Below are positions 27,001 through 45,000 of a DNA stretch of 64,000 nucleotides, one piece after another. A model generated the notes under the pieces. It searched no databases and was not told where the DNA came from. It saw only the letters and a program-made list of their open reading frames with translations. Where the stretch lies: NCBI GenBank assembly GCA_037146775.1, contig JBAWWL010000001.1:5464-69463 (forward strand), in the 5' to 3' direction. Each line of letters starts with the position of its first letter. Positions within the stretch are counted from its first letter, which is position 1. A program made the position numbers and the translations under genes. The DNA comes from Candidatus Omnitrophota bacterium. GTDB taxonomy: Bacteria > Omnitrophota > Gorgyraeia > Duberdicusellales > 4484-171.

Positions 27001-30000
27001 TAAGGCAACTGCTAATTCATCAATTAGGTAATATTTTTGGCGCAGTTAATATTTATGACTTGGATATTGATGAGATTCGTGGGCTTTTCTATGAATCAGG
27101 CAGGGCGATTAACCCTAATACGGATAATATTTTTGATACTATAGCTCAGTTGCGGAAAGTGCGTGTCAGGCAAGAAGTCACGCATGGCAGCCTAGAGCGT
27201 TATCTTTGGCTTACCGGTTCCGATTCGATAACCGATGGCATGTGCGATGAATGTGCTAGAGCCCTACGAGATGCAGAACAACGGCATATTAGTGTTTCAG
27301 TTGAAGGTAGACATGTTATAGATTGCGGAAGTATAAACCAATATTATGGTGTGGTTGATAATATGCACGGCCGCATAGTTATAGATTTTGCGCTTGGGCC
27401 CTATGATCTTAAAAAATATGAAAAGCAGGTGGTAATTTTATCATTGGCTGAGTATCAAGATTTATTGGCAAAACTTTTTGCGCAACAAGTTGAAACTATT
27501 TTTAGCGCGGAAAAAATAGAATTAATACACAAGCTTGAGCATCAATTTTGGGCAGAACGTTTCGCGTTACTTTCACAAATTGCCAGCCAATCCAGTCCGC
27601 TGACCATTCATAGAGGCTCTTCAGCTATCCCGGCAGATATGGCTACAAAACCAGAAATAGTTTTGCCTACTACCCCTCGAGAATGGTATGAATGTTTTTA
27701 TCAAGTTTATCGGGCTTTATCTTGCCGCAACAGTCCTGAAGAAAATACAAGGCTTTTGGGGTGGACTTTTGAAAATTTAGAAAGGCTGGAAAATGATCAG
27801 GGTGAGCGTTTTGGCCGGCGCGAAAGCCATCTAAGACTATTAGCTCCTAGAATTGAAGCATTGCCTGGTTGGGGCAGGATGTTACGCGTTATACGAGAAA
27901 GTAACCCTGTGGCCCGCCGCAATTTAGCAATGTTTGAGAAGGACTATTTAACTATTTCGATCAATGTTCAGCTGGAGGCTGAATCTAGGACTATTGAATC
28001 AAAACAGGCAGCATTTGTAAAACTTGCTGAAACCGCAAGAAAAGAAAAAGCAAGAAAAGAAGAAAAGAATCGTAAAAGAGACGCTGGAAGAGGCATGACT
28101 CAAGACGAACTGCGCATAGCAGCCCGTAAGCGGGAAAAAGGACGTATCTCCAAAGAAAAAGCCAGGCCAGAAAAGAGGCAAAGAAAAGCTTCTGTTGAGG
28201 TGATTGAACCAGCGCAAAACCTGCCTGTATCCGTAGCAGTAACGGCAGATAGCGAGGTTTTAGCTACTCTTGATCCTATCGTTGTTCCGGGCGATACCCA
28301 GAGCGATACTGCGACAGAATCTGTCGTTACAGCTCAACCAGTAGTCCAAGCTACTATGCAAGTCCAGGCTCTTCCAGGAGAATTAGTCAAGCTTATAGCA
28401 ACACGCCGCGCCAAAGGTTTAACCTTCAATAGTTTTAGCCGTAAGTATGGTATTAGTTTACCTTACGTCTGGATAGTTGAGCATCGTTTAATCGTTGAAG
28501 ATTGGCTAGCTAGGCTTGACCAGCCTGAAGATGGCGCTGTTATGCTTGAGATAATAGAGCAATCACCTGCAATATTGATGTTTTGCGCAATTATGAATAC
28601 ATCTTTTGTAAATGAAAAACTTCTTGGATTAGGATTAGCTGAGAATGTGCCGTTTCCTTTATCTTTGCAAGGTAGTGATAAATCGGTTATCCAAGAAAAT
28701 TTAAGAAGAGCATTGGGAGTCTTGGCTGCGGTCGAAGCGGTTCATACACGAAATAATTCAGCCTTAGAAGAGTATTTTACAGTAACAGCAAATCAGCAAC
28801 GCTTGGCTGTTGTAGGTCAGCTACAGGCAGTAATGCGGGTTAATCTTACCCGGTTACGTTACCTTGGGGTGCGTAGCGGAACCTATCAACGTATTTCACA
28901 GGATGTACTTAGCCAGGAAACAGGTTTGCATCAGCAGACCATCCTTTATCTTGAACGCGGCAGAGATAATAGCCCTCTTTCGATGGAGCCGCTTATTAAA
29001 ATTATTCAAGCTTTAGCTTGTAATGAAAAGTTTGATTTTCCTATACCAGAAATTTCCGCAGTAGGTGAAAATGAGCATGCAGAAAAATGGGAAAGAGAAC
29101 AAGCGATATTGAATGCTTTATGCGACTGGCAGGAATTAGACAGATTATACCGCCTGCAAATGGCCGTAAAAGTTACCTCCGAGGCTCTTCTTTTATTAAG
29201 TCAAGATGGAGATGCTTCTGCAGATGAAGATTTTAATCACAAGCTTGATATTGCTTTAACGGATACTGCTGAGGGGGTCTCTTACGTTAATAAAGCAGAA
29301 ACATTAGTTCCTGCCAAGGGAGAACTTCCTGCCTTTGAAGGCTTGTTTGCTATTTCTTTTGGTCTAGCTGTGCGTCTCGCCAGAGAATTAGGTACTAACC
29401 TAGAAAGGTCTACAGACAGTGTTGCGGGTCAAAAGAAGCGCAAGCTTTTAGCGGTTAAAGATATAAGTACTGCAATCAGGCGGCCTGATTCATATATACT
29501 TTGTATTGAGCGTAATGACTCTGAAGAAGGTAAACTGATTATTTTTTATGTTGACGCAATTATCGCTTATTTTGCTTCTAAAGATATAGTTTTGTATGAA
29601 GCTGGCACAGGAGTTAACAAAGATTACGCATCAGTAGTAAAAATGCTATTTAATATTAGGGTGATTGATCGCACGCGTATACTTATCGCAGCGGTTCAGT
29701 CAGCCAATGGTGCAGATCCGGAATTCATCGCTAGCGAATCGTCTTTGGCTGATTTAGTTTCTAAAGGAGTATATGAAGGCAATAACGAAAGGCGTTTTAA
29801 CGGCGAGGCCTTGCGCCGGCTAGGCTTAAATCTAAAGGTTCTTACCCAAACTACACCCATTGAAGGAAAGCCTTATACTTTGGAACGGATGGCCGAGGCG
29901 CTGCATATTTCTAAGCGGCAACTCTTTCGAATAGTAAATGCCGAAGCGCCCATGCCTTATGCGGCATTTTATAGTATGGTAGTAAGCTTAGCCCAACTTT

Positions 30001-33000
30001 TATATAAACAGGCTGGTGTAGAAAATCTGAAGGTTATTACTCAAAGACTTTTAGCCCAAACAGCTTCTTCGGTTATTTCATCCGGCATTCATGTTGTGAG
30101 CAGTCCATTAAAAGAACGTGTGGTAGCTTTAGCTAAAACATTACAGCAGGTAAAGGCAGGATTGGATAGGAGTCATTATGTATTTGGTGCAGCTAGCTTA
30201 ACATTGGGTGTGGTTGGTATATTCGGAGCTCCTTGGATTGCCCCGTTTTTATTGCAAGTTTCCACACAATCACTTCTGGCTTTAACCGCCCTTGGCGGAT
30301 CGGGTGCCTATGTATTATTTGTTAGGCCGCGTTTACGTAAACGTAATGAACAAGAAATCCATTCGCGGCCAAAACAAAGAAAGCGTGACAGAAGAAAAGG
30401 AGATATTAACCGCAGGCAGTTTCTTGGTACATCATTGGTTCCTTTAGCTGGCTCGGTAGTTATGCCTTCTTTGGCAGCGTGGGGTTTACGTAGTTATTAT
30501 GAACATAAAGGTATGTTAAGCGCTTCCGAACGCGCGCATTATTTAAATATTGCAAAACGCATACAGCCGTTAGCAGAAGAGCTTTCGGGAGAATTATTTG
30601 CGCAGGATGAATCTCTTAGTCGTTCTTGCGATACGATGTGGCGCGATTTTAATTTACGTCTTAGCCGCTCAGACGGAAGAGTTGTTGTGACGGGAATGGC
30701 AATTATGTCCGCTTGCATCACGAATACCGATACTGCGGAATTGTATTTTTGTGCCAATCTCGATGCTTGGGATGCTTTATTTAGTCTTGGCAGGACTGAG
30801 CGCGAAGCATACCTTACCAAAGCATTCCTTAAGAGCTTACTTTTAAAAGAATTAGTTCATTTTTATGATTTTCGTACGCACCCTAACATTAATCGATTAT
30901 TAGATGTACAGTCTGAAGAGTACAAAAGGAATGAAAAGCTTTATAAAGATGGACAGATAGCCAAAAGAGTACTTTTAGAAAATGCAAGAAAGTTCGTTGC
31001 TTCTCAGATTTTTATCGAAGCCCGTGGCTTTGAAAAACAACTTATGTATCAGGAACAAAATGGGACTACGGCGGATGAGCTTTTAGTTTTAAGCCGCGTT
31101 CGTACCCCCGCTAATCCTACAACCTATAAAGAGCTTGCTCAGATAGTGCTCTATGAGGCTGCAGGCCGGTTGAAGAATGAGAGTCCGAATACCGCAACAG
31201 GCAGAAGTAATTTACGCCGTCATTTCTTATTGAATTTAATCAATCCGGATTTAGCAAAGACAAAAGAAACGGAACTTATATCAAGGGCGGCTAGATATGC
31301 TTTTGGGGCAGAAGAAGAAACTTATAAGTCTGAAAATTTTGCCCAATGGCTCAGTGACATAAGTTACTATCAGGAATTTTATGATCTTCTGGAAATAAGC
31401 CGTTCAGAAACTGGTTCATCTTCTTCATCCGTCAAAAATCAAGAATACGCTTCTGTTTATCGCACCAAAGATTCTTATTATCCGCCGAACATAGGACAAG
31501 TAAAACGTGATCTTATGGGGGCGTATCCTTGTGCGAGCGCATATTTTTCTTTGGCTATAAGCGATAAAGAACTTAATATAAACGAACTTATGACTGTTGT
31601 CAGCCAAAATACTGAATCAAGCGATGCGAGTAGAGGTTTTGCGTCAAGTGCGATAGCATTCCGTGTTTCAAGTCCAATTGTTAATTATTCTTATTGGGAG
31701 TTAAAAGATGGAAAAATAGAATTAAAGCGTAGGAGAGTAAATCTTGATTTAGTTCCAGTAAATGGAGCCATAGTTAAGGTACTACTATGTGGTATTTGTC
31801 GCGCAGACACTAAAGAAGTGATTTGCGCCAGAATGCTTGTACGAGGGCCTTTGTTCGGACATGAACTCGTTGGTGAAGTTGTCGCAACTGGAGTAAAGAG
31901 CAATTTAGAAAAAGGTGACAAAGTTGTTTTTAACCCCAATATAACTGCAGAACGTACCCCAGGTTTTGCAGAGTATCTAATTGTTTACGATGCTGCCGAC
32001 GAGGCTCTTATTAAGGTTCCTGCTAGAATTGATTCAGATGTTGCAGTTTATGCGGAACCGTTTTCTTGCATTGTGCATAGTGTTGATAGGTTACAAAAGC
32101 TTTTAGGGTTAAAAAGCTTTACCGGAAAAAAAGTAGCAATTATTGGCGCAGGCAATGCCGGGTTATCTCATGCCTGGTTAATAAGACATAATAGAGGTGA
32201 TGTTACTTTATTTAATATTGCTGATGGACGTCTAGAATTTATAAAAGAAAGAGGCCTTTTTGATGGAAAAAAATGTTTACTTCTAGACGAAGCAGAAAAA
32301 TATCGAAATAGGTTCGATCTGGCAATATTAACTACCACAACAGTTAAGTTGAGAGGTCGGAACCCAGATAAGATTTTAGATATTGCCTGGAACTTGGTAA
32401 AACCTACCGGCTATATTCATCTTTATGGAGGAACTAGGCAGGGAGATGTGTTTAGGGGTGCAGATTTAGACTATGTAAGAAGAGAAAAGGCAGATAGCGT
32501 TACGGTGAAAGATGGTCGTAGGAAGGTTAGCTTTACTGGCGCATATGGCACTAAAACAGCTGATTTTATAAAAACATTTAGACTTTTCCAGCAAGAATAT
32601 TTCGCTTCATCGGTTAAGAAGGTATTTTCAGAGGAAATCAGCTTTTCACAATTAAGAGCTACTATGGCTAGAATCGTGAGGTTGATGGAAAAGATTGATT
32701 ATGGAAAAGAAATAGCAGATATTCCGGGGAAAGTAATTATTAGAGTCTCAAGCGCAATAGAGGAAAAGGAACATTTGGATTCTTATTTGTTTTATGCCGA
32801 ACTGTATCGTAAAAATATAAGAAAAGTATCCAGTTGCGTGTATAATATTCTTACCGGAATTCTTCCTAATCGGTTGCGGCAGGGCCAGGGTTGGCCTACC
32901 TTTCCGTGGCTGGCGGAGGCCGGCTTCCCTGCCGTAGCCGTTTATATTTGCGATAGTCCTGTTTTTGCCCCGCACAGTAAATTTATTTCTTTTGTATCAT

Positions 33001-36000
33001 CACCGGCTTCAGACAATAATCCTCTCGCCAATGTGACGAGTATCGCCCGTTCCCCGTATAGCCTTGGTGCAACCCTTAGGGTAATGGCAGATTGGCTTAT
33101 TGTGCATCAAGAGCGCCGGCAGCACCCCCACCTGAGATTTATCCAAACTTATCCGGCTGCTTTAACTTATGGGCGTTACTATACAGATAAGCAGTATTAT
33201 TTTGCTAAAGATATTAGTAATTTTAGCCCACATACTGGGTTGTCTTGGGTTTCGGTAGGTATGGATTTAGTATTTGAAAGGCTCAGACAGCGGCTTTCAC
33301 GGCCCGATGATGCGGCAATATTTACTACATATCTTGGCCGTGAAGCTTGGGGCCTTGGATGTGGCATGGTATTGGCCGATGAGCATGGAGAAGATTTTTC
33401 AGATAGGCTCAAACAAGCTTTGGGTAAAGATTTATTGGAAGCCTTGGATTTTCGTATGTTAGATATTATGCGCACGCATAAATTATCTGCCCCGCAGGCA
33501 ATCATATATTTTTTACAGCATTTGCCCCAATATCATGAGATTGCTGACCCACTGTCAAATGCCGCAGATATCTTAACCGAATTAGCCGTCGAAGCATTGG
33601 TTGGGGAATTTCTTGAAGAAAAAGAACAAGCAGGATTGATTTACTGGTTTGTACAGGAAGGCTTGGTCAATCCGCATTTAGCAACCCTTTCAAGTGTCCG
33701 TCAAAAAGCTTATCTTATTGGCCAGGCTAGCGATGCGGCGATATTAACCAATGAATTACGCGAGTCATCTATGTGGCGCTTTTCGTTTTTACTTAACGGC
33801 AATCTTAGATATCTTTCTTCGCACCGCTTTGAAAGAATTTTTTCGTTCTTTATGCTCTATGCAATTCTAACCTACCTTACTTCTGGGGGTAGGAGTGGTT
33901 TTAATCCAGAAACAGGCGCTATCCTTGCCATAATGCGTCATGTGTCGTTACCTAACCAGTTATTTGACGGTATTTTGCAAATGCTTCTTGAGCCAGTCAG
34001 GCAACGGGCGGCTGCCATTACACGTTCTGTAGAAAAACTACAATTTACGCTACCCGATCCGGAAGGAGCGCTAGAACGTTTTAGCCAACAAGTAAGTTCC
34101 TATGGTATATATTTAAGCGCCGAAGTCTTAAAGGACATATTCGAAAATATTTTTTATAAAATACACCCTGATTACTTTTTCAAAGATGATATTACAGCAG
34201 TGCGTTGGGCGCTGACGGCGAGTGATTTTTCGCTCTGTCCGGATTCCCAGATAAAGCTTATGATGGCGTATTACAACGTAATTTTAAGCCAACGTGCAAG
34301 TAAAACCAGTTCACCCGTACCCTTATTGCAAAATCAACAATCTATGCGGCGTATACTTTGCGTTGGCGATAGTATTACGCGCGGGATCGCGCACTCAAGC
34401 CACAAAGAAGGATATCGCGAGCGATTGAGCGAATTATTCCATGAACGCGGTATTTGCGTTGATTTTGTCGGTCCATTCCTTGAGCCAAATCTAAATGCGC
34501 ATCGTCATCTTGGCTGGGATGGTCTTAAAACTTGGGATGAACCTGCTCCGATGTGCATCTTTCGTCTCATTAAGCAGTATTTAAGCGATTCGGCGCCGAC
34601 TGCCATACTTTTACACGCCGGCACCAATGATATTTCCCACTATCCCCGGTCTGCAGAGGTTTACGCGCGCAATGTGATAGAAATGGTTAATTTTATCGAA
34701 CGGCATAATTCCGATACAGAGATATATATTGCTTTGATCATACCGCGCGGGGAAGAAGCCGGTACGGAATGGTATGAAGCGACGAAAATCTATAATGATT
34801 TTCTGCGACAAAAGATTCGCAGTTATCTCAGTCCCTTAACTGGGCAGCCCAAGTCGAATCTTTATCTGGTTGATATGTATAGTGCGTTTACAGCCAATTC
34901 TCAGTGGCGTAATGACTATATGGCTGATCCTTGGCATCCTAATGATAGGGGCTATGAAGTAATGGCAGAGGCTTGGTTTAGAGCGCTTACTGACCCGCGG
35001 GCCGCAATAGTTACAAATTTATTAAGTGATTTTCATTTCCACTCATTATCGTTAGATTCATCCGATCGTCGCATTGAGCGGCTCCGTGTCATTAATTCGC
35101 TGAGTTTGTTATACACACTTTTTGCGCAAGCAAGCCTTCTTGAGGGACATACCGTTATTCATCTTGCTGCAGGATTAGAATTCTTAATGTCTGCTTTTGC
35201 TCCTACTATTATTGTCGATATCGACCCGCTTTATGAAATTGAGCCTCGTAGCCATTGTTTTAGAGATAAATATGTTCCTATGTTTTTAAATAGAGAATTT
35301 TTGCAGAGTGTTAGCTGGAAAGAATTAACCTGCGTGTCCGGCAATATGTTTAATTCTGATACAATACGGAAAGTTAAAGCAGCGATTAAGACAGAAAAAA
35401 TAACAGTTCTTATGAAGGGAGAAGGCTGGCCGGGCTGGGGTATAAATTTAGAAAATCAAGAATGGCGAGAAGCATATTATGGATTTTTAGATATGATTAT
35501 AGAGATTTTAGTGCCGGATCAGTTTATATTCCTACGGCATGAACACTGTCAAATGCCATCGGATTATTTAACCGCAACTAGAGGATACAGAAGAGTTCAT
35601 GATTGGCTATTGCCAGAACATAGGCAAAGTCTTACGCTAGCCTTTGAGAAGATGTGCCAAGGTAATGTTTCTGTTGATTTCGGCCAATGTTTTGGCTTTA
35701 AAGAAATTGCCTTTGCTACTGAGGCGCTTATTTTACAGCGTTGTGCCTCCAGCCCTTCGATTCGTTTCGTTCACTTCCGCCTACGCCAAGGCTTCGGCGG
35801 GCAGGCAGGACGTCAGCACAATAGTGCCTCCAGCCCCCTTGACACAAATAATGCAGGCCAATCCAGCATGGTTCAATTACCGGAAGTAATGGTACGGTTA
35901 GCCAGGCATCAAGGTGAATATGAAGTAGTTTCGCCACAACCACAAGCTTTGGTTGCTAATGATCAGCTAAGAGGCCGTCTAGATAACCTTTTAGGGTTGC

Positions 36001-39000
36001 TTACAACCTATATGCCGAGCGGCCCTCCTTTGACCATAGTAATGACCACTAGCCTTTCTGTTGTAGACCACACCCGTACCGCTCATTTTCTTGATGCCGC
36101 CTTAGCAGAGATTGATCCCGGAAGGAGAACGATTGCTCTGCACCACTCATTCTTTGATTTTCCTATTATCTTCCAGGCTGATATCTTACGTATTCGTTTT
36201 GGATATTTAAACGGTTTATCGGAACCAGAAGTATATCAGGATAGCCTCGCTCATTTTGGAACATACCGAAAACCAGACGCGCAAGAAAAAGACGAATTAA
36301 CTCAATTTTTAGAAGAAGCCGAAAGTATGGGTTTTGCATTGCCCGTTCTTTATCGGGAGGCGCTTAGACAATTACAGCGGCTTCATTTTAGTGAGCTTGA
36401 CCGTCATCTTTTTATTGGTGAAGGAAATCATTTCCAGGCTTATGAGAAGCTTGGCGCTCACCTTATCGCTGCAAACGAGAGAAATCTCGGTACTTATGTT
36501 GCGGTGTGGGCGCCGCACGCCCAGTTAGTTTCTGTTATAGGTGATTTTAATAATTGGGGTAGTGTGTATGCGCATCAGCTATCCAACCATTTAGGAATTT
36601 GGCACGGGTTTATCCCGGTTTTAAATAAGGATAGGCGCTATAAATATCGAATTTTAGGTCGAGACGGTATAGTGCGTGATAAGGCCGATCCCTACGCATT
36701 CTTCAATGAGCATCCCAGCCAGGGGCACGAAAATTCTACTGCATCGCTCGTTTGGGATCTGCACTACCAATGGAATGACCAGGAATGGATGAAACAGCGG
36801 GCTTCAAAACAGGCATTAGATAAACCTATTGCTATTTATGAAGTTCATCTGGGTTCATGGAAGCGTAGCGCGCATAATTGGCCGCTGGATTATCGAGAAT
36901 TTGCCCGGCAGTTGGCGGAATACGTGAAAGAGAATGGTTTTACCCATGTCGAGTTACTACCCATAACCGAGCATACTTTCGAAGGCTCTTGGGGTTATCA
37001 GGTAGGCAATTACTTTGCTCCGACCTCACGCTTTGGCACGCCTCAGGATTTAATGTATTTGGTTGATTATTTACACCAGCAAGGTATTGGGGTTATCCTT
37101 GATTTTGTGCCCGCACATTTTCCCAAAGACGCTCATGGTTTGAGCCGTTTTGACGGAACAGAAATCTATGGTCATCTTGACCCTGCCCAGGGAGAACACC
37201 CTCACTGGGGAACCTATATATTTAATTACGGCCGGCATGAAGTACAAAGTTTTCTTATCAGTTGCGCTTTATTCTGGCTCGAAAAATATCACATTGATGG
37301 TCTGCGTTTTGACGCGGTCGCCTCGATGCTTTATCTTGATTACGGTAGAGAGGGGAGACCTTGGGTACCAAATAAGTATGGCGGAAGAGAAAATCTTGAA
37401 GCAATTGAGCTATTAAAGAAAGTAAATACCATAGCTCACGCTCAAAAGCCGGGAGTTTTAACTATTGCCGAAGAATCAACCGCTTGGCCCGCAGTATCGC
37501 ACCCGGTGCATTCAGGTGGGCTAGGCTTTTCTCTGAAGTGGAATATGGGCTGGATGCACGATACGCTGAAATATTTAGCAAGAGATCCTATCTACCGGAG
37601 CCATCATTTTGGGGAGTTAACTTTTATTTTTGAGTATGCTTTCTCTGAAAATTTTGTATTGGCTTTGTCTCATGATGAGGTTGTACACCTGAAGCGCTCG
37701 TTATTAGAAAAGATGCCAGGCGACCAATGGCAAAAATTCGCTAATCTTAGGCTTCTTTATGCCATACTGTATGGTTTTCCCGGCAAAAAATTAATCTTTA
37801 TGGGAGGAGAATTTGGGCAAGCTAGCGAATGGAACCACGATACGAGTTTAGGGTGGGGTCTTTTAAATCTGCCTTTACATAGCGGGTTACAGAAATTATT
37901 TTGTGACCTCAACAGGCTTTATCGCGGTGAACCTTGTTTGTATGAGCTTGATTTTAATCCGCAAGGCGCACAAGTAGTTCACTTTGATAGTACAAACACT
38001 GTTCTTGGTGTCGTTCGTAGAGGCATAAATTCCAACGAAAAGCTAATATGGGTTTATAACTTTACTCCAGTGGTTCGCCATGGCTATCGTATAGGCGTGT
38101 CTTGGCCAGGAAAATGGGAAGAGGTGTTGAATAGTGATGCTAAAATTTACGGTGGCTCAGGGGTTGGTAATTTAGGTGGTTTATATGCCGAAAACATTGC
38201 TTTTGGCGGTAAGCCTCATTCTATACAAATAGTACTTCCGCCATTGGGGGCAGTGGTACTTAAGGGTAAGCGTAACCAGGCGTCTTCAGCAGTAGAAAAT
38301 ACAGTTAGTTTCGCTCGTTCCCGCCTACGCCAAAGCTTCGGTGGGCAGGCAGGACGTCAATGTGATAGCGTCTCAAGCCCCGGGAGAATGTTAAATGTTG
38401 GCGGAAAACAATTTCAAGTTACTCCCAAGTTAATAGCTGATCTCACTTGGCAGTCAGGGCATAACAATCTTATTGCAATCAAGCCCGCTGGGGATTTTAT
38501 TTTAAATCACCTTAGGGCTTGGTCAAATTTATTTATACTGCCTAATAATTGTCTGCCCATGAAAGGTATTTTAAGAGGTGTTAATATCGGCTGTGGCGAT
38601 TCTCAATTTTCAAGGATAATTGATCAGACTTTCCCCATCGTAGAAGAATTTATTGATGTTGATTTGGCAGAATTTCCTTATGGTAATTGTCGGTACAGCC
38701 ATTCTGTAGTAGCTGATGCTGAGAATCTCCCTCGAGACATGTTTCCCGACTCTTCCTATGATTTTACTATTCGTTCTTTTGTTTCAAATTATTTAGAGAG
38801 TCAGGAGCGAGGCGTACGTGAAGCATTAAGAATTCTACATCCGAATGGCCGTGCCTTTGAGATATTACACCATCAACAATCAGGCTATTTCCATGCAGAG
38901 CGTGTATATCAAGAGCAAGCTCAAGATCAATGGCCTTATCTTCGTACGGTTGATGATGTAATAAAAATTCTTTATTGGCTGAGAGAAATTTATTGGGCAT

Positions 39001-42000
39001 ATAATGAGCATAGGCTTGATGTTTTGGATATCGAAAAAATGAGTCCTGACTTACGCCAAAGATTAATTAACCCCGGAGTTATAGAACAATGTTTAAATGT
39101 TGTCCAAAGGCAGGAAGCGTATGTAAAGAGCGGCGCACATTATGCTGTTTCCATGAGCTATACCGCTATGAGAGAGCTGCTACAATTTCTTCTTCTGTGG
39201 CAAAGCAAGAACAAAGTGTTTAAAGATAAAGATGAACTTGAAGCTTTCTTTGAATCTTTGGGCTTTAAGATTGTGGTGCGTGCCGAGGTAATTCAAGATA
39301 TCGAGGTAAAAATCCCCAGCATCAGAGATATTTTAGTTGGAAATAGCCAAGTTATTAAAACCGTTATTGACCCTTGTGTCGCCTTTGGTATTGTGCTTGA
39401 AAAACCGGAAGACATTTATGGATTTCCAGAAATGTCTCGAGGCATGGATAACTCGGGTTTTCAAAGTTCAAGTGCGGTTGTTAATACAGAATTAGAATTG
39501 GTCAACCAGGAAGTATTGGCGGCAAGAGCCTCGATGAACGGGCTTTTTGGTATGCGGTTTGATAATGATACTTTAATGGAGTCTTTGATAATGCATTCTG
39601 GAGCTATTAACCAAGCAGATCATGCTATGGTTGCTCTTAAGTTATTTAAGAACTGTGATGGTACGCCGTTTCTTTTAAACGGCCATTTCTATATAACTGT
39701 TCCCGTTAACAATATAACAACAGTACGGCAACTTACCGCAGAGGAATTATTGCAAATGGGTCTTACGCCGGTATTTGGTGGAGATGGTCAGCAAGTGCAC
39801 GTATTGGCAAAACAACCGTTTATTCCGCTCAATCCTTTCAGACATAGCCGGAATTATTACATAGAAAATATCTATACAACTACAGTGATATCAAAATATG
39901 GAGAACATACCCATACTTATTTTGGCTGGCTAAATGAAGATGAGCTATCTGAGCGTCTTTGGCTAAATAGTTTGCAAGAATATACGATATTGTATGGCGA
40001 TTGTTTAAATTGCAAAGGCGCTGGGGTAATGAATTTGGGCAATGGCTTTGCTCGCACTACAACACATACCTACCATTCTAGACAAGAATTTGAAGAAGCT
40101 TTATCGGCTGCCGTTATCGATCTTTATACCACGGATGTAATTCAATATGAAGATGCCATAATGGCCCTAGAAGAAATTGCCGGGTTCTCTCATGGGATAG
40201 CCAAAGATTTAATTGACTGTTTCTGTCGTGGCGAAAATACGATCGGTTATTTACGTTCTATCGTGGATGTAGCGCGTAACGAGGCGGTAGTTATGAACGT
40301 TTTTAGCAGCAAGGACATTACTGTCAGTATTCGCAGAACAAAAGCGTGCGAGTTCCAGATAGTTAGAAGTATAAATATTCAAGGTTTGCAAGATTGTTCC
40401 GGAGTATTATTGGACATAGAGCATCAAGCTTGGGCATTGCATATGCCAAGGGGTTTAGCTGGCACCAGTGATGGATTCCGTAACCAACCGCGTATTTTAG
40501 CCGGTGGGACGCGAATTAATTCTTTGAATATTCTTTCTTCAAGGTTGCAACCAACAAATTTATGCCCTTATAGTACGTTAGGCCAGGTTTGGAGAGTGCA
40601 GCTTGGCGTTCTGGGTAGGACCTATCCTATAAGCGCTTTTCGTAATACGTCCGATGGCCGTTATAAAAATATGATACCCATACCAACACACTTAAAAGAG
40701 CGAGAACACGCTTTTAATTTTGCTTATAATAACGGCCATAATTTGCGAGTGTGTTTGCTTATTGGTTTAGTCGAATCGGATTATTCTCTTTCCAGGGAAA
40801 AAGATTTGCCCGAAGACGGCACCGCTACCGATTTTGATGAAAAAGTCGATATAGGTGAATGGTATTTGCGCAGTAATGAAAATGAGTTTCCTGGGTATCG
40901 TGATGAAGAGCTTGGTCGTTTAGTTGAAGTGCGAGCTACTTTAGTTACTATCAACACATTATTTCAGATGTTTCATCGTGATATACACCAGGGTAATATT
41001 CCGCTTTTAGGTTTAATGAGCGAAGATGGTCTTAATGATAGATTATTCCAACAGTTTTTATACGGCCTTTTTATGGATAACCAAGCCGTTATGCATGAGG
41101 TTATAGAGGCCATAAGACAGCGCCGGACAAATTTAATGGCTGTAAGCCGCGCCATAAATTTTATGCCGGATATCGAAATAGCTAAGATAATTCTTGCGCA
41201 CTGGAATATATTCCGGCAAAACAAAAGCTTTGAAGATTTGCGCGGAACTCCTGTTGAGAATAACCGCGCACAGTTACTTAGAGACAATCTTGTTTTTATT
41301 GTAAGCAAACAACACGATACAGCAAGACAGGTTTTAGTTGCCATAGAAAGCGCTGATTTTGTAAAGGCAGAAGCTTTGCTTAGATCTATCAGCCAGCATA
41401 CCTTGCTTATTCCTTTCATTTCTTTGGTTATGGAGTATTCACGAGTGCATACAGGGCGGATGGTTTTACCTGCTGCCCGTGCAGTCAGTGTTCTTTTTAT
41501 TCGTGTCATAGCAGCTTTAGATGATCACCAGCCGCAGTTAGCACATCAAATTTTTGGTAATAATGTAGCTTTTATGCACGCAGCAAGAATTTATCATGAT
41601 GCAATAGCGCATTTTTCCCGCGGTCGCCTGCGGGCTGCCTGGTGGAACGTGCATGAACTAAGATATCTGAAAGATAGTCAAGCCAAAACAACGTCACTAC
41701 TTTCTTACGGTATTAAGGTATTAATAAGGGAATTAGAAAATAAACTAAGCAATATAAGCTCATCGTCTTTAGGGGAAACACTAATTCACACCAGTTATTC
41801 TATTCAGCCCAGGTTAGTCGATTTGTTTGGCGTAAAATCTATACGTTCGGTTTTTGATTTTGCCGCCGGCGATGGTAGCTGGAAACGCAAATTGATTCAT
41901 AATCCGCCACTCTGGTTGGCTGATGAAGCCAATATTATTCCTTGTGAACAAGAAACGCCGAAAGATTGCGGTTTTGGGCCCAAAGTGAATCCGGAAGTTG

Positions 42001-45000
42001 ACTGGTTAGGCCTAGATATGATTCGTGATAAGCAATTATATCCGTCGCCAGAAAGTATAGATTTATTTCATCAAGCGTTTGATCCTTTAAGCGTGGTAAA
42101 TTTATATAGGCACAAGCTTGAACGCTTAGTTAAGCCCGATGGTTGGTTTCTATTTGCAAATCGTAGTGGCTGCACTCATCTATGGTCTTATGAGCAGTGG
42201 CTTCGAGAAAGAGAATACCCTTATTTAATATATTACCAGCGTGCGCCCCCGGTTGATTACCCTCTTACTACCTGGTGGTATGCAGCAATACAGGATTATG
42301 GATTATATACCATCAATGGCGTTAACTATGTTATTGTTGCCAGAAAACAATCAGGGGGTACACTTACTTTCTCTCAAACTCAAGATTTCCGCGTTTCATC
42401 ATCCATACAATCATCAAAATTAAAAGTATTAATACTATGTTCTGCCAACGAGAATCGTTCGCAGGTACTCGCGGTATTCTTGCGCCAGCAGCTGGAACGG
42501 GATGGATTAGGTCATAGTGTGGAGGTTGTCGCACGTGGCACTTCTGCAGCAATAGAATATAGAAGCGAACTTGGTATTCCGGCAGAAAAAAGTGCAGAAA
42601 CAGCCAGAGTATTAATTTTAGGGCGAGTTTCCTCTGAGCACCTAGAGCGCATAAACGTACCGCAAAGAGTTTCTTTAGAAGAATTAGAGGAAGCCGAGAT
42701 TATTGTCTGTGTTGATCAGGCGAATGTGAGCGTCGAGCTATTTGGCTTGTTGCGAGAAGAGCATCTTGAGCCTACCAGCGCTATCTGGCAAGATATCGCG
42801 AAAAAGATTATATATACCGATCTTCCTGACCCATCCCTGGCCACTTTAATGGCTAAGAATGCTCATATGGCCGTGTTTAATAGGGCAATTTTTTATCAGC
42901 TCATGAAAAAAGCCAGGAGTCTTATTACGGGAGTACTTATTTTAACTATACAGCAAAGATTAAGTGGCAAATATTTATTAAAGTGCAGTTCTTCTGCTAT
43001 TAGTCTATCTGATTTAGATTTAAGCCGGAAAGAATTCATTACAAGGGGTAGGTACGGCCTGCTTTTTAAGGTCCCGCTTGTAGATGGTACTCAAGCGGCG
43101 GTATTAAAAATATATTACCTGAGGAGTTTATCGCCGGAGCGTTTCGTGCCGCTATGTCAGCATTTACTTTCGCTTTCGCAAAAACTTCCTACTCTAACAC
43201 AGCAAGGATATATTCCAACATATCATTGCAGCGGTTTTTGTTCGGTGTGCGGACAAATAGATAATCCAGCTAATTGGAATTTGACCCTTTACGGCCAAGA
43301 TGTCCCTCAAAGATCAAATCACCATTTATGTTGTTTTATAGTTATGGATTATGTGCCGGGTAAGGATTTTAGTCATTTCTTGCGCGAAGGCTATGCTTAT
43401 AGAAGTACGGTTGAACTTCGTAAATTAAAAAATCTTCTTACTTTTACGCTTGCGATTGCTAAAACCATTCAATTATGCCACAAAAAAGGACTTATTATCC
43501 GCGATATAAAACCTTCTAATATTATGGTTGATATTAGTGAAAGGTTACATATACGTACTAACCTTGCTGATCTTGAAGGCGCATTTGTTTTACCCTTGTC
43601 ACCCGTAGACCGCTTAGTATATGAAATGTGTACACCGCTTTATGCTGAAAGTCTTGCCCCCTTTAGTCAGGACGCATCCGGCCATATTACTCCTGAGGCC
43701 TTAGACTTAGGTAAAAGATTTTTTGACAGGCAATGGGATATTTATGCTTTTGGCATGGTATTAGCCCAAATAATTTTTACAGGTTTAGATATGGATGCTG
43801 TGCAAAAACAAGAACTATTAGGTTTATTCTCTCATGAATATCATTCCGCAGATGACTTAGATAGTTTGAGGTTACAGTTAAAAAGAGCAATTATTTTAAA
43901 GCTTAGAGAAATCGCTGGCGTGACTATTCAGTCCCCAGAAAATACGTTACGAAGAGTACTTAGCGAATTAGCCTTGGATTGCCTTAAGCCCAGAGCTGGC
44001 CGGCCGTCGGAAATGGAAATAGTTGTCGAGCGCTTAAGGGAAATTTCTACTTATATCCAGCCTCGGGTTTCCTCGGCAATACTTAGCAATGTTGGGATGA
44101 CTAATAGTATCGTTCAATTTCCCGGTCTGGGCTTATGGGGCACATGGAATTATCGCCGGACTTCTAACGCAAAAAGAGCAACTTTAAGAATACATCAAGG
44201 TTTTCAAGATTGTGGCGATGTTACATTCACGCTTGAAAATGGCGGTATTGTTCTTTATTCCTGCAATGATTTGAATGTGAGAGTCACTAGTCGTGGCTAT
44301 GGTACGATTCTTTTAATAAATGGCCTTATATTAGCTGAACAAGAGGCGCGCCGGAAGCAGCTGTCGGTGCGCTGGGCGTTGGTTTATTATACTCGCGAGA
44401 ATGATGACAAGATGGAGGACGAGCGTATTGCAGCATTAGAAAGATTCTTAGAGAAATTATGTTTTGATAGTATTCAGCAAGCAATCATAAAGGATGCGCG
44501 TCTGAAGAGGCTTTTGGCAAAATACCCGCACACAAAAGCAGCGGGAGAATTTGGACAATGGTTTATTTCTTTAGAATTTTTGGCCTTATTACACCGCGAG
44601 TTGTTAGCTAGGTATACCTTTAATTTAAACAATAGCGATACTGTTTCTTCGAGTATTCCTCTTAATTATATAGCCAGACATGGTGTTGCTTCATCTCCTT
44701 CCCGTGGCAGGGATGATAGGCGAAAAAGAAGAGATCACAGCATAAAACAAAAGCGCTCAGCTCTCGGTTTAGCTATGTCTAGCAGCCGTGATGTAATGCA
44801 ACCCTTAGAAACCGGTACGCCTGTGTGGTATGACCAGTATTTTCCGCTTAAGCATGAATTAAAAGAGAAAATTATTAGGATTGTACAATGGAGAGAAAAG
44901 CCTGACTTTGCCCGGGGTCGTTCCGGATATATACGCTTCACTCAACCGCTCGTGTATGTATTAACTACACCCAGAGGAGAAAAGAGTTTTGCGATTTATG

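What the first reader, a model, noticed from the sequence alone, without database searches (positions are those of the whole stretch)
35763..38384. GlgB module is bracketed by 78 bp in-frame direct repeats, a footprint of recent module capture
The GlgB-like module (by eye, roughly half or more identity to enterobacterial GlgB over about 620 aa) is flanked by two direct repeats of about 80% nt identity, at nt 35763-35840 and 38307-38384. They lie exactly 848 codons apart in the same frame, and both encode (F)xRxRLRQxFGGQAGRQxxSxSSP. This high conservation to a free-living glgB, together with the near-identical flanking linkers, suggests two things. An entire glgB gene was inserted in-frame relatively recently. 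The giant gene may grow by cassette-like acquisition between conserved linker repeats, through homologous or illegitimate recombination between linker copies. A third, more diverged copy of the ggcaggcagg-containing linker appears near nt 58350-58390.
Basis: seen in the sequence. Interest (0 to 1): 0.85.

Follow-up and report, generated by a model that had tools for sequence, protein, structure and literature searches.

The report
Old linker repeats flanking GlgB module
Two similar 78-base stretches do flank a complete glycogen-branching-enzyme module inside a gene of more than 64 kb, but they mark an old duplication of an inter-module linker that carries a short GC-rich DNA element also found in unrelated bacteria, not a recent gene capture.

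Summary
R1 (35763-35840) and R2 (38307-38384) are in-frame direct repeats 848 codons apart, 60/78 identical, with a 38-nt core 36/38 identical. They lie in one stop-free frame that spans the whole window (at least 21,332 aa). Between them sit a 182-aa orphan N-extension and a complete, catalytically intact short-form GlgB.

"Recent capture" is not supported.
- GlgB is at most 60% identical to anything among 5.8 billion proteins, and its codon usage is typical of the host gene.
- It sits among other glycogen enzymes in the same ORF (GT4/GT1, GH77, debranching enzyme).
- R1/R2 paralogy continues about 55 codons downstream at near-saturated divergence (37% nt identity), so the duplication is old.
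- The 34-nt core CCCGCCTACGCCAAGGCTTCGGCGGGCAGGCAGG also occurs in intergenic DNA of Acidobacteriota, Bacteroidota and other metagenomic organisms. Its similarity therefore says nothing about age.

Wider context: modules are separated by a peptide motif, [VA]-S-S-P-[LV], found 36 times against 4.6 expected and never inside a Pfam domain. Six GC-rich elements, including R1 and R2, all sit just after such a motif.

The closest analogues are in-frame palindromic repeats of the Rickettsia RPE type, here inside an Omnitrophota-type giant multi-enzyme gene. An ancient recombination origin of the bracket remains possible.

The parts
3..63998 (+). Single stop-free reading frame (21,332 codons) that runs off both ends of the window; a giant multi-enzyme gene
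   Evidence: only long frame. (GC1/GC2/GC3 = 52/40/35%, real coding periodicity). (GT4/GT1, ELFV dehydrogenase, Pkinase, GH77, GDE_N/C, HTH_3, ADH_N, GDSL, GlgB, methyltransferases, PTA_PTB, HATPase_c). Paralogous kinase segments.
35763..35840 (+). R1: upstream copy of the 78-nt junction repeat (aa 11921-11946). The GC-rich core is 35776-35809.
   Evidence: The core differs at 1 of 34 positions from the foreign consensus.
35743..35755 (+). Left copy of a perfect 13-nt direct repeat, GTGCCTCCAGCCC (encodes ..ASSP). The right copy is at 35824-35836, 81 nt away, inside the 3' end of R1.
   Evidence: unique to these two sites in the window; a direct repeat of 11 nt or more is found at under 1% of random sites.
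35841..36386 (+). 182-aa N-terminal extension between R1 and the start of GlgB homology; no detectable relatives
   Evidence: GlgB homology starts after it. (no homologues cover it). (no paralogue elsewhere in the gene).
36387..38294 (+). Complete short-form GlgB (GH13 branching enzyme) module, aa 12129-12764
   Evidence: The conserved GH13 motifs DGLRFDAV, IAEESTAW and SHDEVVH are visible in the alignments.
38307..38384 (+). R2: downstream copy of the 78-nt junction repeat (aa 12769-12794). The core is 38320-38353.
   Evidence: The core differs at 2 of 34 positions from the foreign consensus. No flanking direct repeat.
35841..36005 (+). Weak residual paralogy with 38385-38549, at the same 2544-nt offset as R1/R2
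   Evidence: 61/165 nt identical against 43.9 expected, p = 0.003; BLOSUM62 over 55 aa p = 0.00025; nothing upstream. (rank 2 of 620 post-SSP pairs)..
38583..38855 (+). Methyltransferase_11 domain of the next module, downstream of R2
58322..58415 (+).
   Evidence: z = -3.3 to -4.1. (the same 11-mer also occurs at 50142, so its value as a target-site duplication is weak).
13839..13908 (+). Family B hairpin element, copy 1 (starts by encoding RLRQ with other codons)
   Evidence: z = -5.3.
32871..32944 (+). Family B hairpin element, copy 2
   Evidence: z = -4.0.
56505..56574 (+). Family B hairpin element, copy 3
   Evidence: z = -5.6.

Best explanation
R1 and R2 are two old paralogous copies of one inter-module junction of a giant multi-enzyme protein.

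Each junction carries, translated in frame as linker peptide, a copy of a short GC-rich dispersed DNA element. Its 34-nt core is CCCGCCTACGCCAAGGCTTCGGCGGGCAGGCAGG, and elsewhere this element lives in intergenic DNA just 3' of ordinary genes.

A segmental duplication or recombination event long ago left the (N-extension + GlgB) module between two copies of the unit [junction + about 55 codons]. Since then the ordinary coding part of the unit has diverged almost to saturation, while the element core has stayed nearly unchanged. The core was therefore either held by a constraint at the nucleotide level or refreshed later by gene conversion or re-insertion.

The element is tolerated because it sits in a linker marked by the punctuation motif [VA]-S-S-P-[LV], outside the folded enzyme domains. 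GlgB itself is a long-resident, active member of the glycogen-enzyme set of this protein.

Shown: the repeats, their extent, the foreign copies, the age signals, and the junction motif.
Inferred: the order of events, the nucleotide-level constraint, and the assignment of the gene to the Omnitrophota 'multi-enzyme' giant-protein class.
For: Repeat extent and relationship:
- R1/R2 geometry and identity.
- Of the 13 core codons, 10 are identical, including rare ones (CTA is 7% of Leu codons, GGG 13% of Gly). Two differ synonymously and one non-synonymously. Peptide-level selection alone would not preserve the codons.
- R1 and R2 share a 3' extension that foreign copies lack.
- Homology persists about 55 codons downstream at the fixed offset and is absent upstream (p = 0.003 for nt, p = 0.00025 for aa; rank 2 of 620).

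The core outside this gene:
- It was found in 4 GTDB contigs (3 in one Ca. Sulfotelmatobacter MAG, 1 in a Chitinophaga MAG) and 14 metagenome contigs, with unrelated flanks and GC of 38-62%.
- In four clean low-GC loci it lies 48-140 nt past a stop-free frame's end, and in a fifth (L006) about 140 nt past AcrB. Four of these neighbours are confirmed as ordinary genes: ClpB-like, VanZ-like, CDC48-like AAA and AcrB (the one in L012 has no Pfam hit). In L007 it lies between two OEP genes.

GlgB is not recent:
- At most 60% identity to any database protein.
- Codon usage typical of the host gene.
- Conserved catalytic motifs present.
- Other glycogen enzymes in the same ORF.

Junction context:
- SSP occurs 36 times against 4.65 expected (z = 14.5), with diverse codons, and 0 of 36 fall inside Pfam envelopes.
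- All six GC-rich elements begin at most 12 aa after an SS[PSAC] motif.

Class context: methyltransferase, HATPase_c, GT1 and sugar-metabolism modules are typical of Omnitrophota giant proteins (bioRxiv 10.1101/2023.11.21.568195 and 10.64898/2026.06.07.730766).
Against: - The downstream paralogy is weak (about 21% aa identity) and rests on statistics from a single pair.
- The foreign copies were found by an exact-match pattern, so the 'invariance' of the core is partly an ascertainment effect. Only the three extra 5' C's were free to vary.
- No orthologous giant gene or source genome could be retrieved. Neither the insertion history nor the genome-wide copy number of the 78-nt unit is known.
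- The family A core does not fold better than shuffled sequence, so no structural reason for a nucleotide-level constraint is evident.
- The perfect 13-nt direct repeat around R1 looks like a fairly young target-site duplication. That fits later re-insertion better than simple descent.
Confidence: 0.45

Rival explanations
1. A whole glgB gene was inserted in frame recently by homologous or illegitimate recombination between linker copies (for example Campbell-type integration of a circular intermediate), and the giant gene generally grows this way.
For: - Direct, same-frame repeats lie in the two junctions around one complete enzyme module.
- The 2544-nt spacing would allow clean in-frame excision or integration.
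- R1 and R2 are each other's closest relatives.
- Another giant-type protein, P0122, has its GDSL module bracketed by two copies of its own 20-aa linker.
- How giant genes incorporate domains is an open question (10.1101/2023.11.21.568195).
Against: - No donor above 60% identity, and codon usage is typical of the host gene.
- Identity outside the core is 60-75%, and the co-duplicated downstream 165 nt is only 37% identical.
- Core identity is uninformative about age.
- Only this one pair exists in 64 kb.
- GlgB is not precisely bracketed: there are 182 orphan residues on the 5' side.
Confidence: 0.12
2. Two independent in-frame insertions of a small mobile GC-rich element (RPE- or MITE-like) into neighbouring linkers. 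The bracketing of GlgB would be a coincidence, with survival only where insertions are tolerated.
For: - The element is dispersed in other genomes, with 3 copies in one MAG.
- R1 has a perfect 13-nt flanking direct repeat.
- R1 and R2 each differ from the foreign consensus at different positions, a star-like pattern.
- Five other GC-rich elements or copies also sit at junctions.
- In-frame MITE/RPE insertions are documented (PMC10969869).
Against: - The private shared 3' extension and the downstream paralogy at the same offset are not expected for independent insertions.
- Same frame and same position relative to the junction.
- By my rough estimate, two random junction insertions would fall on adjacent junctions in well under 10% of cases.
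- No terminal inverted repeat, R2 has no target-site duplication, and the core is not a notable hairpin.
Confidence: 0.2
3. The linkers are former intergenic spacers. Neighbouring genes, including glgB, were fused into the giant ORF by loss of stop codons, and the GC-rich element that normally sits 3' of genes was carried along and is now translated.
For: - Foreign copies lie 48-140 nt downstream of stop codons.
- The R2 core starts about 27 nt after the end of GlgB homology.
- The GlgB module is gene-complete, from residue 6 to the C-terminus of free-standing GlgBs.
- All three frames of the core are open (read directly from the sequence).
Against: - The 13-nt direct repeat around R1 duplicates codons of the SSP junction motif, so the target was already a coding junction.
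- A strongly selected [VA]SSP[LV] motif at nearly every junction is not explained.
- The 182-aa stretch between R1 and GlgB is not a recognisable gene.
Confidence: 0.12
4. The repeat is kept for its peptide. SSP...RLRQxFGG|QAGRQ would be a processing or docking site (for example a double-glycine site for a C39-type peptidase) that cuts the polyprotein on both sides of the GlgB module.
For: - RLRQ occurs 6 times against 0.47 expected. Families A and B encode it with different codons.
- 12 of 13 core residues are identical.
- The sequence contains a GG motif with hydrophobic residues at -7 and -12.
- C39 and S8 peptidase domains and possible cleavage are discussed for Omnitrophota giant proteins, whose cleavage points are unknown (10.1101/2023.11.21.568195).
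Against: - Codons are conserved as well, which is not needed for a peptide site.
- The same DNA is intergenic in other bacteria.
- Only two such sites occur in 21,332 aa, and no peptidase domain was detected in the window.
- Positions -4 and -8 of the double-glycine leader consensus are not met (consensus from my own knowledge, not tested).
Confidence: 0.08
5. Assembly chimera: a foreign glgB was joined into the contig at shared repeat k-mers.
For: The core is shared with other organisms, and repeats can mislead assemblers.
Against: - The frame stays open through 848 codons, including 182 non-GlgB residues, and there is no stop after GlgB.
- Codon usage and GC match the rest of the gene.
- By inspection of the two core sequences returned, the longest exact word shared by R1 and R2 is 17 nt, below usual assembly k-mer sizes.
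Confidence: 0.02

Closest known systems
Rickettsia palindromic elements (RPEs) and other intragenic MITEs that make in-frame fusions (review PMC10969869)
   Same: Short dispersed repeats that sit inside protein-coding genes in frame, are translated, and are tolerated at structurally permissive positions. Several families occur in one genome or gene. Families B and hp3 here are long palindromes.
   Different: - The family A core is only about 34-50 nt and is not a significant palindrome.
- The identical core occurs across phyla rather than within one genus.
- All copies here lie at a specific inter-module punctuation motif of a single giant gene.
- The R1/R2 pair also shares flanking paralogy.
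- Genome-wide copy number is unknown.
Omnitrophota giant proteins: 'Archaeovorins' / 'multi-enzyme metabolic cluster' class (bioRxiv 10.1101/2023.11.21.568195; 10.64898/2026.06.07.730766)
   Same: A stop-free frame of more than 21,000 codons tiled by many unrelated enzyme domains (methyltransferase, HATPase_c, GT1, sugar-metabolism enzymes, kinases). Long unannotated stretches with almost no homologues.
   Different: - Taxonomy of the window was not established.
- Term searches of these two papers found no mention of junction motifs or linker repeats.
- Only two TM-like segments occur in this 64-kb part.
REP/BIME-type extragenic repeats located 3' of genes
   Same: Foreign copies of the core are GC-rich, carry a short inverted repeat, lie shortly downstream of stop codons in either orientation, and are multi-copy in one MAG. 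The reverse strand contains GTAG (read directly from the sequence).
   Different: - REPs are lineage-specific (my own knowledge), whereas this core is identical across phyla.
- No RAYT gene was seen.
- In the window the element is translated rather than extragenic.
Integron gene cassettes / Campbell-type integration between repeats
   Same: One complete functional unit flanked by direct repeats, as a single crossover between repeat copies would leave.
   Different: No attC-like site, no integrase in the window, the 'cassette' lies inside an ORF, and the repeats are old and diverged outside the core.

Membership tests
GlgB (GH13 1,4-alpha-glucan branching enzyme) | CBM48 + GH13 catalytic domain + alpha-amylase C-terminal domain, each above the Pfam gathering score | tested here: met
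   CBM_48 64.7 bits (cut-off 22.4), Alpha-amylase 54.4 (22), Alpha-amylase_C 70 (21.2); 717 bits to GlgB 6joy and 665 bits to E. coli 1m7x, over the full chain length.
GlgB (GH13 1,4-alpha-glucan branching enzyme) | Catalytic Asp/Glu/Asp motifs conserved | tested here: met
   DGLRFDAV, IAEESTAW and SHDEVVH align with the same motifs in P0002 and 6joy. Assignment of the catalytic residues rests on general GH13 knowledge.
In-frame intragenic palindromic repeat (RPE/MITE-like) | Member of a dispersed multi-copy repeat family | tested here: inconclusive
   The core is present at about 13 distinct foreign loci, 3 of them in one MAG. Only 2 copies occur in the window, and the source genome is not available.
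In-frame intragenic palindromic repeat (RPE/MITE-like) | Palindromic or hairpin-forming sequence with terminal inverted repeats | tested here: not met
   Family A (R1/R2): z = -0.4 to -1.3 for the units and +1.0 to -1.3 for the core alone. No terminal inverted repeat. The feature is met by family B (z = -4 to -5.6, 12-nt terminal inverted repeat) and by hp3.
In-frame intragenic palindromic repeat (RPE/MITE-like) | Inserted in frame in an ORF without disrupting it | tested here: met
   both copies lie within the intact frame, with lengths and offsets that are multiples of 3.
In-frame intragenic palindromic repeat (RPE/MITE-like) | Target-site duplication, and empty sites in orthologues | tested here: inconclusive
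   R1 has a perfect 13-nt direct repeat 81 nt apart; R2 has none. No orthologues were found for empty-site comparison.
   Best identity is 60%. RSCU distance is at the 35th percentile, and GC3 is 0.39 against 0.35 +/- 0.03.
   Core 36/38, remainder of the 78-nt unit 24/40, downstream 165 nt 37%.
   No relatives of the flanks in the 5.8-billion or 1.84-billion protein sets, and none in the genome or metagenome scans.
Omnitrophota giant multi-enzyme protein | ORF above 10,000 aa tiled by many distinct enzyme Pfams | tested here: met
   Class description in 10.64898/2026.06.07.730766.
Omnitrophota giant multi-enzyme protein | Encoded in an Omnitrophota genome | not testable with these tools
   Source contig not found. 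GlgB best hits are spread over several phyla.
Known structured RNA family (Rfam) | Match to an Rfam covariance model | tested here: not met
   nothing at the repeat sites in the window or in loci L002-L005.

The most novel reading that the evidence does not exclude
Giant multi-enzyme genes may be built and reshuffled as in-ORF cassette arrays. On this reading, junction-resident GC-rich repeat elements (families A, B and hp3) provide the homology for recombination that inserts, duplicates or excises whole enzyme modules in frame. The ubiquitous [VA]-S-S-P-[LV] punctuation, with RLRQ...GG in some linkers, would mark sites where the polyprotein is processed or where translation pauses between modules. 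R1-GlgB-R2 would then be a fossil of one such event.
Probability: 0.12. Interest if true: 0.85.

Novelty: new variant of a known kind. Interest (0 to 1): 0.55.

Why it matters
The 2023 preprint on Omnitrophota giant genes states that two questions are open: how these genes of over 60 kb acquire domains, and whether their products are cleaved. This window offers concrete handles on both.
- A sharply over-represented peptide motif that delimits modules.
- Small GC-rich elements that sit only at those junctions.
- One module whose two junctions are demonstrably paralogous.
- One tandemly duplicated module.

With the complete genome and its relatives, these features would allow module gain and loss to be dated and mapped, and cleavage or pausing sites to be tested directly.

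Separately, a 34-nt sequence shared almost unchanged by intergenic DNA of Acidobacteriota, Bacteroidota and other organisms and by this ORF is unexplained and matches no Rfam family.

Tried and rejected
1. Orthologous giant genes. Word-indexed searches with 470 aa and 2478 aa of the GlgB flanks found nothing. The exhaustive phmmer search found only GDSL hits plus an unnamed 420-aa domain, and nothing over R1 or the N-extension.
2. Source genome. The pattern scans of GTDB genomes and JGI metagenomes returned only foreign single-copy loci. The viral scan was empty.
3. Best database hit. P0001 looked like a longer relative but is an ordinary GlgB with an internal assembly-like duplication, in a normal gene neighbourhood.
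4. Known RNA families. No Rfam match. Family A hairpin folding is not better than shuffles, so I dropped the idea that R1/R2 are structured hairpins.
5. Literature search for the core sequence: no paper.
6. A target-site duplication for R2. The only candidate (GCGTCT, 88 nt apart) is out of frame and too short, so it was rejected (and by reading the sequence).
7. The direct repeat around hp3 as a target-site duplication. It was downgraded because the same 11-mer also encodes VSSP at 50142.
8. SSP enrichment in remote relatives. It is absent in P0121, P0129 and P0187. P0129 uses R-x-S-S instead, and P0122 uses its own linker.
9. Structure prediction was not run. The flanks have no homologues, so low confidence there could not be interpreted.

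Full report
**The object.** The whole 64,000-nt window is one stop-free frame (nt 3-63998, 21,332 codons) that runs off both ends. No other frame has an open stretch longer than 183 codons. Codon-position GC is 52/40/35%, as in a real gene. Pfam finds a string of unrelated enzymes: GT4/GT1, Glu/Leu/Phe/Val dehydrogenase, protein kinases (with a further paralogous kinase segment), GH77, glycogen debranching enzyme (GDE_N/GDE_C, 183 bits), HTH_3, ADH_N, GDSL lipase, GlgB, two methyltransferases, PTA_PTB and HATPase_c. This architecture matches the 'Archaeovorin' / 'multi-enzyme metabolic cluster' giant proteins described for Omnitrophota (bioRxiv 10.1101/2023.11.21.568195 and 10.64898/2026.06.07.730766). 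I could not establish the taxonomy of the window itself.

**Check of the observation.** R1 (35763-35840) and R2 (38307-38384) are in the same frame, 2544 nt (848 codons) apart.
- They are 60/78 identical, and the blastn self-comparison gives E = 1e-12.
- The 38-nt core is 36/38 identical. It occurs nowhere else in the window, even allowing 3 mismatches, and no shuffle produces a match.
- Codon by codon, 13 of 26 codons are identical, 4 differ synonymously and 9 change the residue. Within the 13 core codons (RLRQxFGGQAGRQ) the counts are 10, 2 and 1. The identical ones include codons that are rare in this gene, such as CTA at 7% of Leu and GGG at 13% of Gly.
- The segment between the repeats is 822 aa. 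GlgB homology covers residues of about 184-809 of it (717 bits to 6joy, 665 bits to E. coli 1m7x). In gene coordinates that is aa 12129-12764.
- R2 therefore begins 4 residues after GlgB ends, but R1 lies 182 residues before GlgB starts.
- That 182-aa stretch has no homologue in any search and no paralogue elsewhere in the gene.
It is a distinct hairpin element of about 85 nt (z = -4.1).

**Is the GlgB module a recent arrival?** The evidence says no, with one caveat.
- Among 8,000 scored homologues the best are free-standing GlgBs of about 635 aa from Acidobacteriota, Armatimonadota, Planctomycetota and others, all at 57-60% identity.
- The top-scoring hit, P0001, is an ordinary GlgB with an internal duplication.
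- The module's relative synonymous codon usage lies at the 35th percentile of 637-codon windows of the same gene. Its GC3 (0.39) is like that of the other well-conserved modules (GDE 0.42, GDSL 0.43).
- The GH13 catalytic motifs are intact.
- The same ORF carries GT4/GT1, GH77 and debranching-enzyme modules, so GlgB belongs to a functional theme.
- Caveat: capture from the same genome's own glgB would leave no compositional trace and cannot be excluded without that genome.

**How far does the R1/R2 relationship extend, and how old is it?**
- After the core, R1 and R2 share a further stretch of about 28 nt that includes the SSP codons AGC CCC. Foreign copies lack it.
- Beyond the 78 nt, at the same fixed offset, the next 165 nt are 37% identical against a background of 26.6% (p = 0.003).
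- The next 55 residues score far above random pairs (p = 0.00025). Upstream there is no signal (alignments).
- This is not a generic property of sequence following a junction. Among 620 pairs of 55-residue segments following SSP motifs, this pair ranks second.
- The duplicated unit is therefore at least about 240 nt, and its ordinary coding part has decayed nearly to saturation. The duplication is old. The core is conserved far beyond its surroundings, codons included, so peptide-level selection alone does not explain it.

**The core is not private to this gene.**
- An exact scan for a 29-nt pattern found it in three contigs of one Ca. Sulfotelmatobacter MAG and in a Chitinophaga MAG. A 31-nt pattern found 14 metagenome contigs.
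- After merging duplicates these are about 13 distinct loci from roughly nine organisms, with GC of 38-62% and unrelated flanks. All share CCCGCCTACGCCAAGGCTTCGGCGGGCAGGCAGG, and about half also share a 5' extension similar to CTTCGGCTNCGCT.
- In the loci where genes are clear, the element is intergenic. It lies 48-140 nt downstream of the end of an adjacent stop-free frame (ClpB-like in L004, VanZ-like in L011, a frame with no Pfam hit in L012, CDC48-like AAA in L014) and about 140 nt downstream of AcrB in L006. In L007 it lies between two OEP genes. Orientation relative to the four low-GC neighbours is mixed, and no transposase lies beside it.
- R1 and R2 differ from this consensus at 1 and 2 positions respectively, and at different positions.
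- It matches no Rfam family, no paper contains the sequence, and it is absent from viral contigs.
- It does not fold better than shuffled sequence.
- Because the scans were exact-match, the apparent invariance is partly an ascertainment effect. Even so, the existence of identical 31-mers across phyla means that core identity between R1 and R2 cannot be read as recency.

**Junction context.**
- The tripeptide SSP is the most over-represented in the protein: 36 against 4.65 expected, z = 14.5. SSPL occurs 15 times against 0.48, VSSP 11 times against 0.30.
- It is encoded by many different codon combinations, and none of the 36 falls within a Pfam envelope (5.6 expected). The looser motif x-SS-[PSAC] falls inside an envelope once in 76 occurrences (11.9 expected).
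- It typically lies just before or after domains.
- R1 lies between two SSPs, and R2 lies between SSA and SSP.
- Besides R1/R2 there are three copies of a hairpin element of about 72 nt, family B (13839, 32871, 56505). Their fold z-scores are -4 to -5.6. The outer stem and apex are conserved, while the inner stems differ yet stay paired. The hp3 hairpin is a further element.
- All six elements start within 12 residues after an SS[PSAC] motif. I estimate about 80 such sites in 21,332 residues, so a random position has roughly a 4-5% chance of doing so.
- Families A and B both begin by encoding RLRQ with different codons. RLRQ occurs 6 times against 0.47 expected.
- R1 is flanked by a perfect 13-nt direct repeat 81 nt apart that includes the SSP codons. 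This looks like a target-site duplication made in an already coding junction. R2 has none. The 11-nt repeat at hp3 is weaker evidence, because the same 11-mer encodes VSSP elsewhere.

**Growth of the gene by junction-delimited modules.**
- It is seen directly once. A methyltransferase-like module of about 218 aa is duplicated in tandem (50301-50849 and 50955-51506, 66.5% nt identity), and each copy ends in AKAIILQK[VA]SSAL.
- A remote relative from the representative library, P0122 (1961 aa, GDSL 45% identical), has its GDSL-containing segment bracketed by two copies of its own 20-aa linker, ADHTPRGCKTAGVxPDxxSPEA. Repeated linkers around modules may therefore be a class feature.

**Interpretation.**
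- The best-supported reading is that R1 and R2 are old paralogous junction segments, each carrying an in-frame copy of a dispersed GC-rich element. The (N-extension + GlgB) module came to lie between them through an ancient duplication or recombination event. The core similarity reflects a nucleotide-level constraint, later gene conversion, or re-insertion, not youth.
- Independent insertions into adjacent linkers, ex-intergenic spacers after gene fusion, and a peptide-level processing site (the linker contains a double-glycine motif) remain possible. Each is scored in the rival explanations.
- An assembly chimera is very unlikely. The frame stays open for 848 codons with no stop after GlgB, composition is uniform, and the longest word shared by R1 and R2 is 17 nt.

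**Novelty and value.**
- In-frame intragenic repeat elements are known (RPEs and MITEs; PMC10969869), and so are giant multi-enzyme genes.
- My term searches of the two giant-gene papers turned up no mention of three features seen here: the confinement of several GC-rich element families to a sharply defined punctuation motif, a module with paralogous junctions, and a core shared across phyla.
- These features make the open questions of module acquisition and possible cleavage of giant proteins testable once the genome and its relatives are in hand.

Noticed in passing
whole ORF, e.g. 34308, 35748, 35829, 38373, 58314, 58419: The peptide motif [VA]-S-S-P-[LV] punctuates the giant protein. SSP occurs 36 times against 4.65 expected (z = 14.5). 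Its codons are diverse, though TCG at the second Ser is enriched (10/36 against 10% gene-wide, p = 0.0025). None of the 36 lies inside a Pfam domain, and many lie 15-35 aa before a domain or just after one. It is a candidate module boundary or processing site.
   Followed up: partly
13839-13908, 32871-32944, 56505-56574: Family B: three in-frame hairpin elements of about 72 nt. The outer stem is CGGTTGCGGCAG/CTGCCGCAGCCG and the apex is CCGTGGCTGG. The inner stems differ in sequence but remain paired. Fold z-scores are -4 to -5.6. Each starts by encoding (N)RLRQ and sits just after an SS[SPC] motif.
   Followed up: partly
58311-58426: A hairpin element of about 85 nt (z = -3.3 to -4.1) lies between two VSSP motifs, each encoded by the same 11-mer, GTTAGCTCGCC, 105 nt apart. 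It contains GCGAAGC-type mini-hairpin sequence and the 11-mer GGGCAGGCAGG in a different codon phase from R1/R2.
   Followed up: partly
L002-L019 (e.g. L004:1380-1413, L014:537-570, L003:2345-2378): The 34-nt sequence CCCGCCTACGCCAAGGCTTCGGCGGGCAGGCAGG occurs almost unchanged in intergenic DNA of about nine unrelated organisms: a Ca. Sulfotelmatobacter MAG (3 loci), a Chitinophaga MAG, and contigs with GC of 38-62%, including one next to a CDC48-like AAA ATPase. It lies 48-140 nt 3' of ordinary genes. There is no Rfam family, no literature hit and no neighbouring transposase. Its nature is unexplained.
   Followed up: partly
50301-50849 and 50955-51506: Tandem duplication of a methyltransferase-like module of about 218 aa (66.5% nt identity). 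Each copy ends with AKAIILQK[VA]SSAL and is preceded by xSS[PA]L...HYY[RK]. This is a direct example of growth by duplication of a junction-delimited module.
   Followed up: partly
about 8247-9290, 42975-43775, 51402-52553: Three paralogous protein-kinase segments (25-39% aa identity to one another, aa 2724-3096, 14325-14591 and 17134-17517). The first two have Pfam Pkinase hits and share the motif QWDIY[SA]FGMVL, encoded by a 33-nt stretch that is 91% identical (8979-9011 against 43731-43763).
   Followed up: no
about 33021-34283 (aa 11007-11427): An unannotated domain of about 420 aa is shared at 25-31% identity with three database proteins (P0121 685 aa, P0129 3785 aa, P0187 6429 aa). In those proteins it starts near the motif EYEHPLG and directly follows an R-x-S-S or A-S-S stretch. 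It is probably a recurring module of giant proteins.
   Followed up: no
P0122 residues 729-748 and 1396-1415 (database protein, not in the window): A 1961-aa multi-enzyme protein has its GDSL module (45% identical to the window's) bracketed by two near-identical copies of a different 20-aa linker, ADHTPRGCKTAGVxPDxxSPEA, with a third, diverged copy at residue 470. Linker repeats around modules may be general in this protein class.
   Followed up: no
41606-41656, 44337-44384, 20234-20297, 3355-3399: Further short GC-rich islands (72-78% GC in a 42% GC gene), for example TTCCCGCGGTCGCCTGCGGGCTGCC, which encodes SRGRLRAA. They may be more small elements and were not examined.
   Followed up: no
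about 2514-4118 and 4593-5126 / 14130-14678: Older internal paralogies: aa 838-1200 against 1016-1372 (25-29% identity) and aa 1531-1708 against 4710-4892 (27-34% identity).
   Followed up: no
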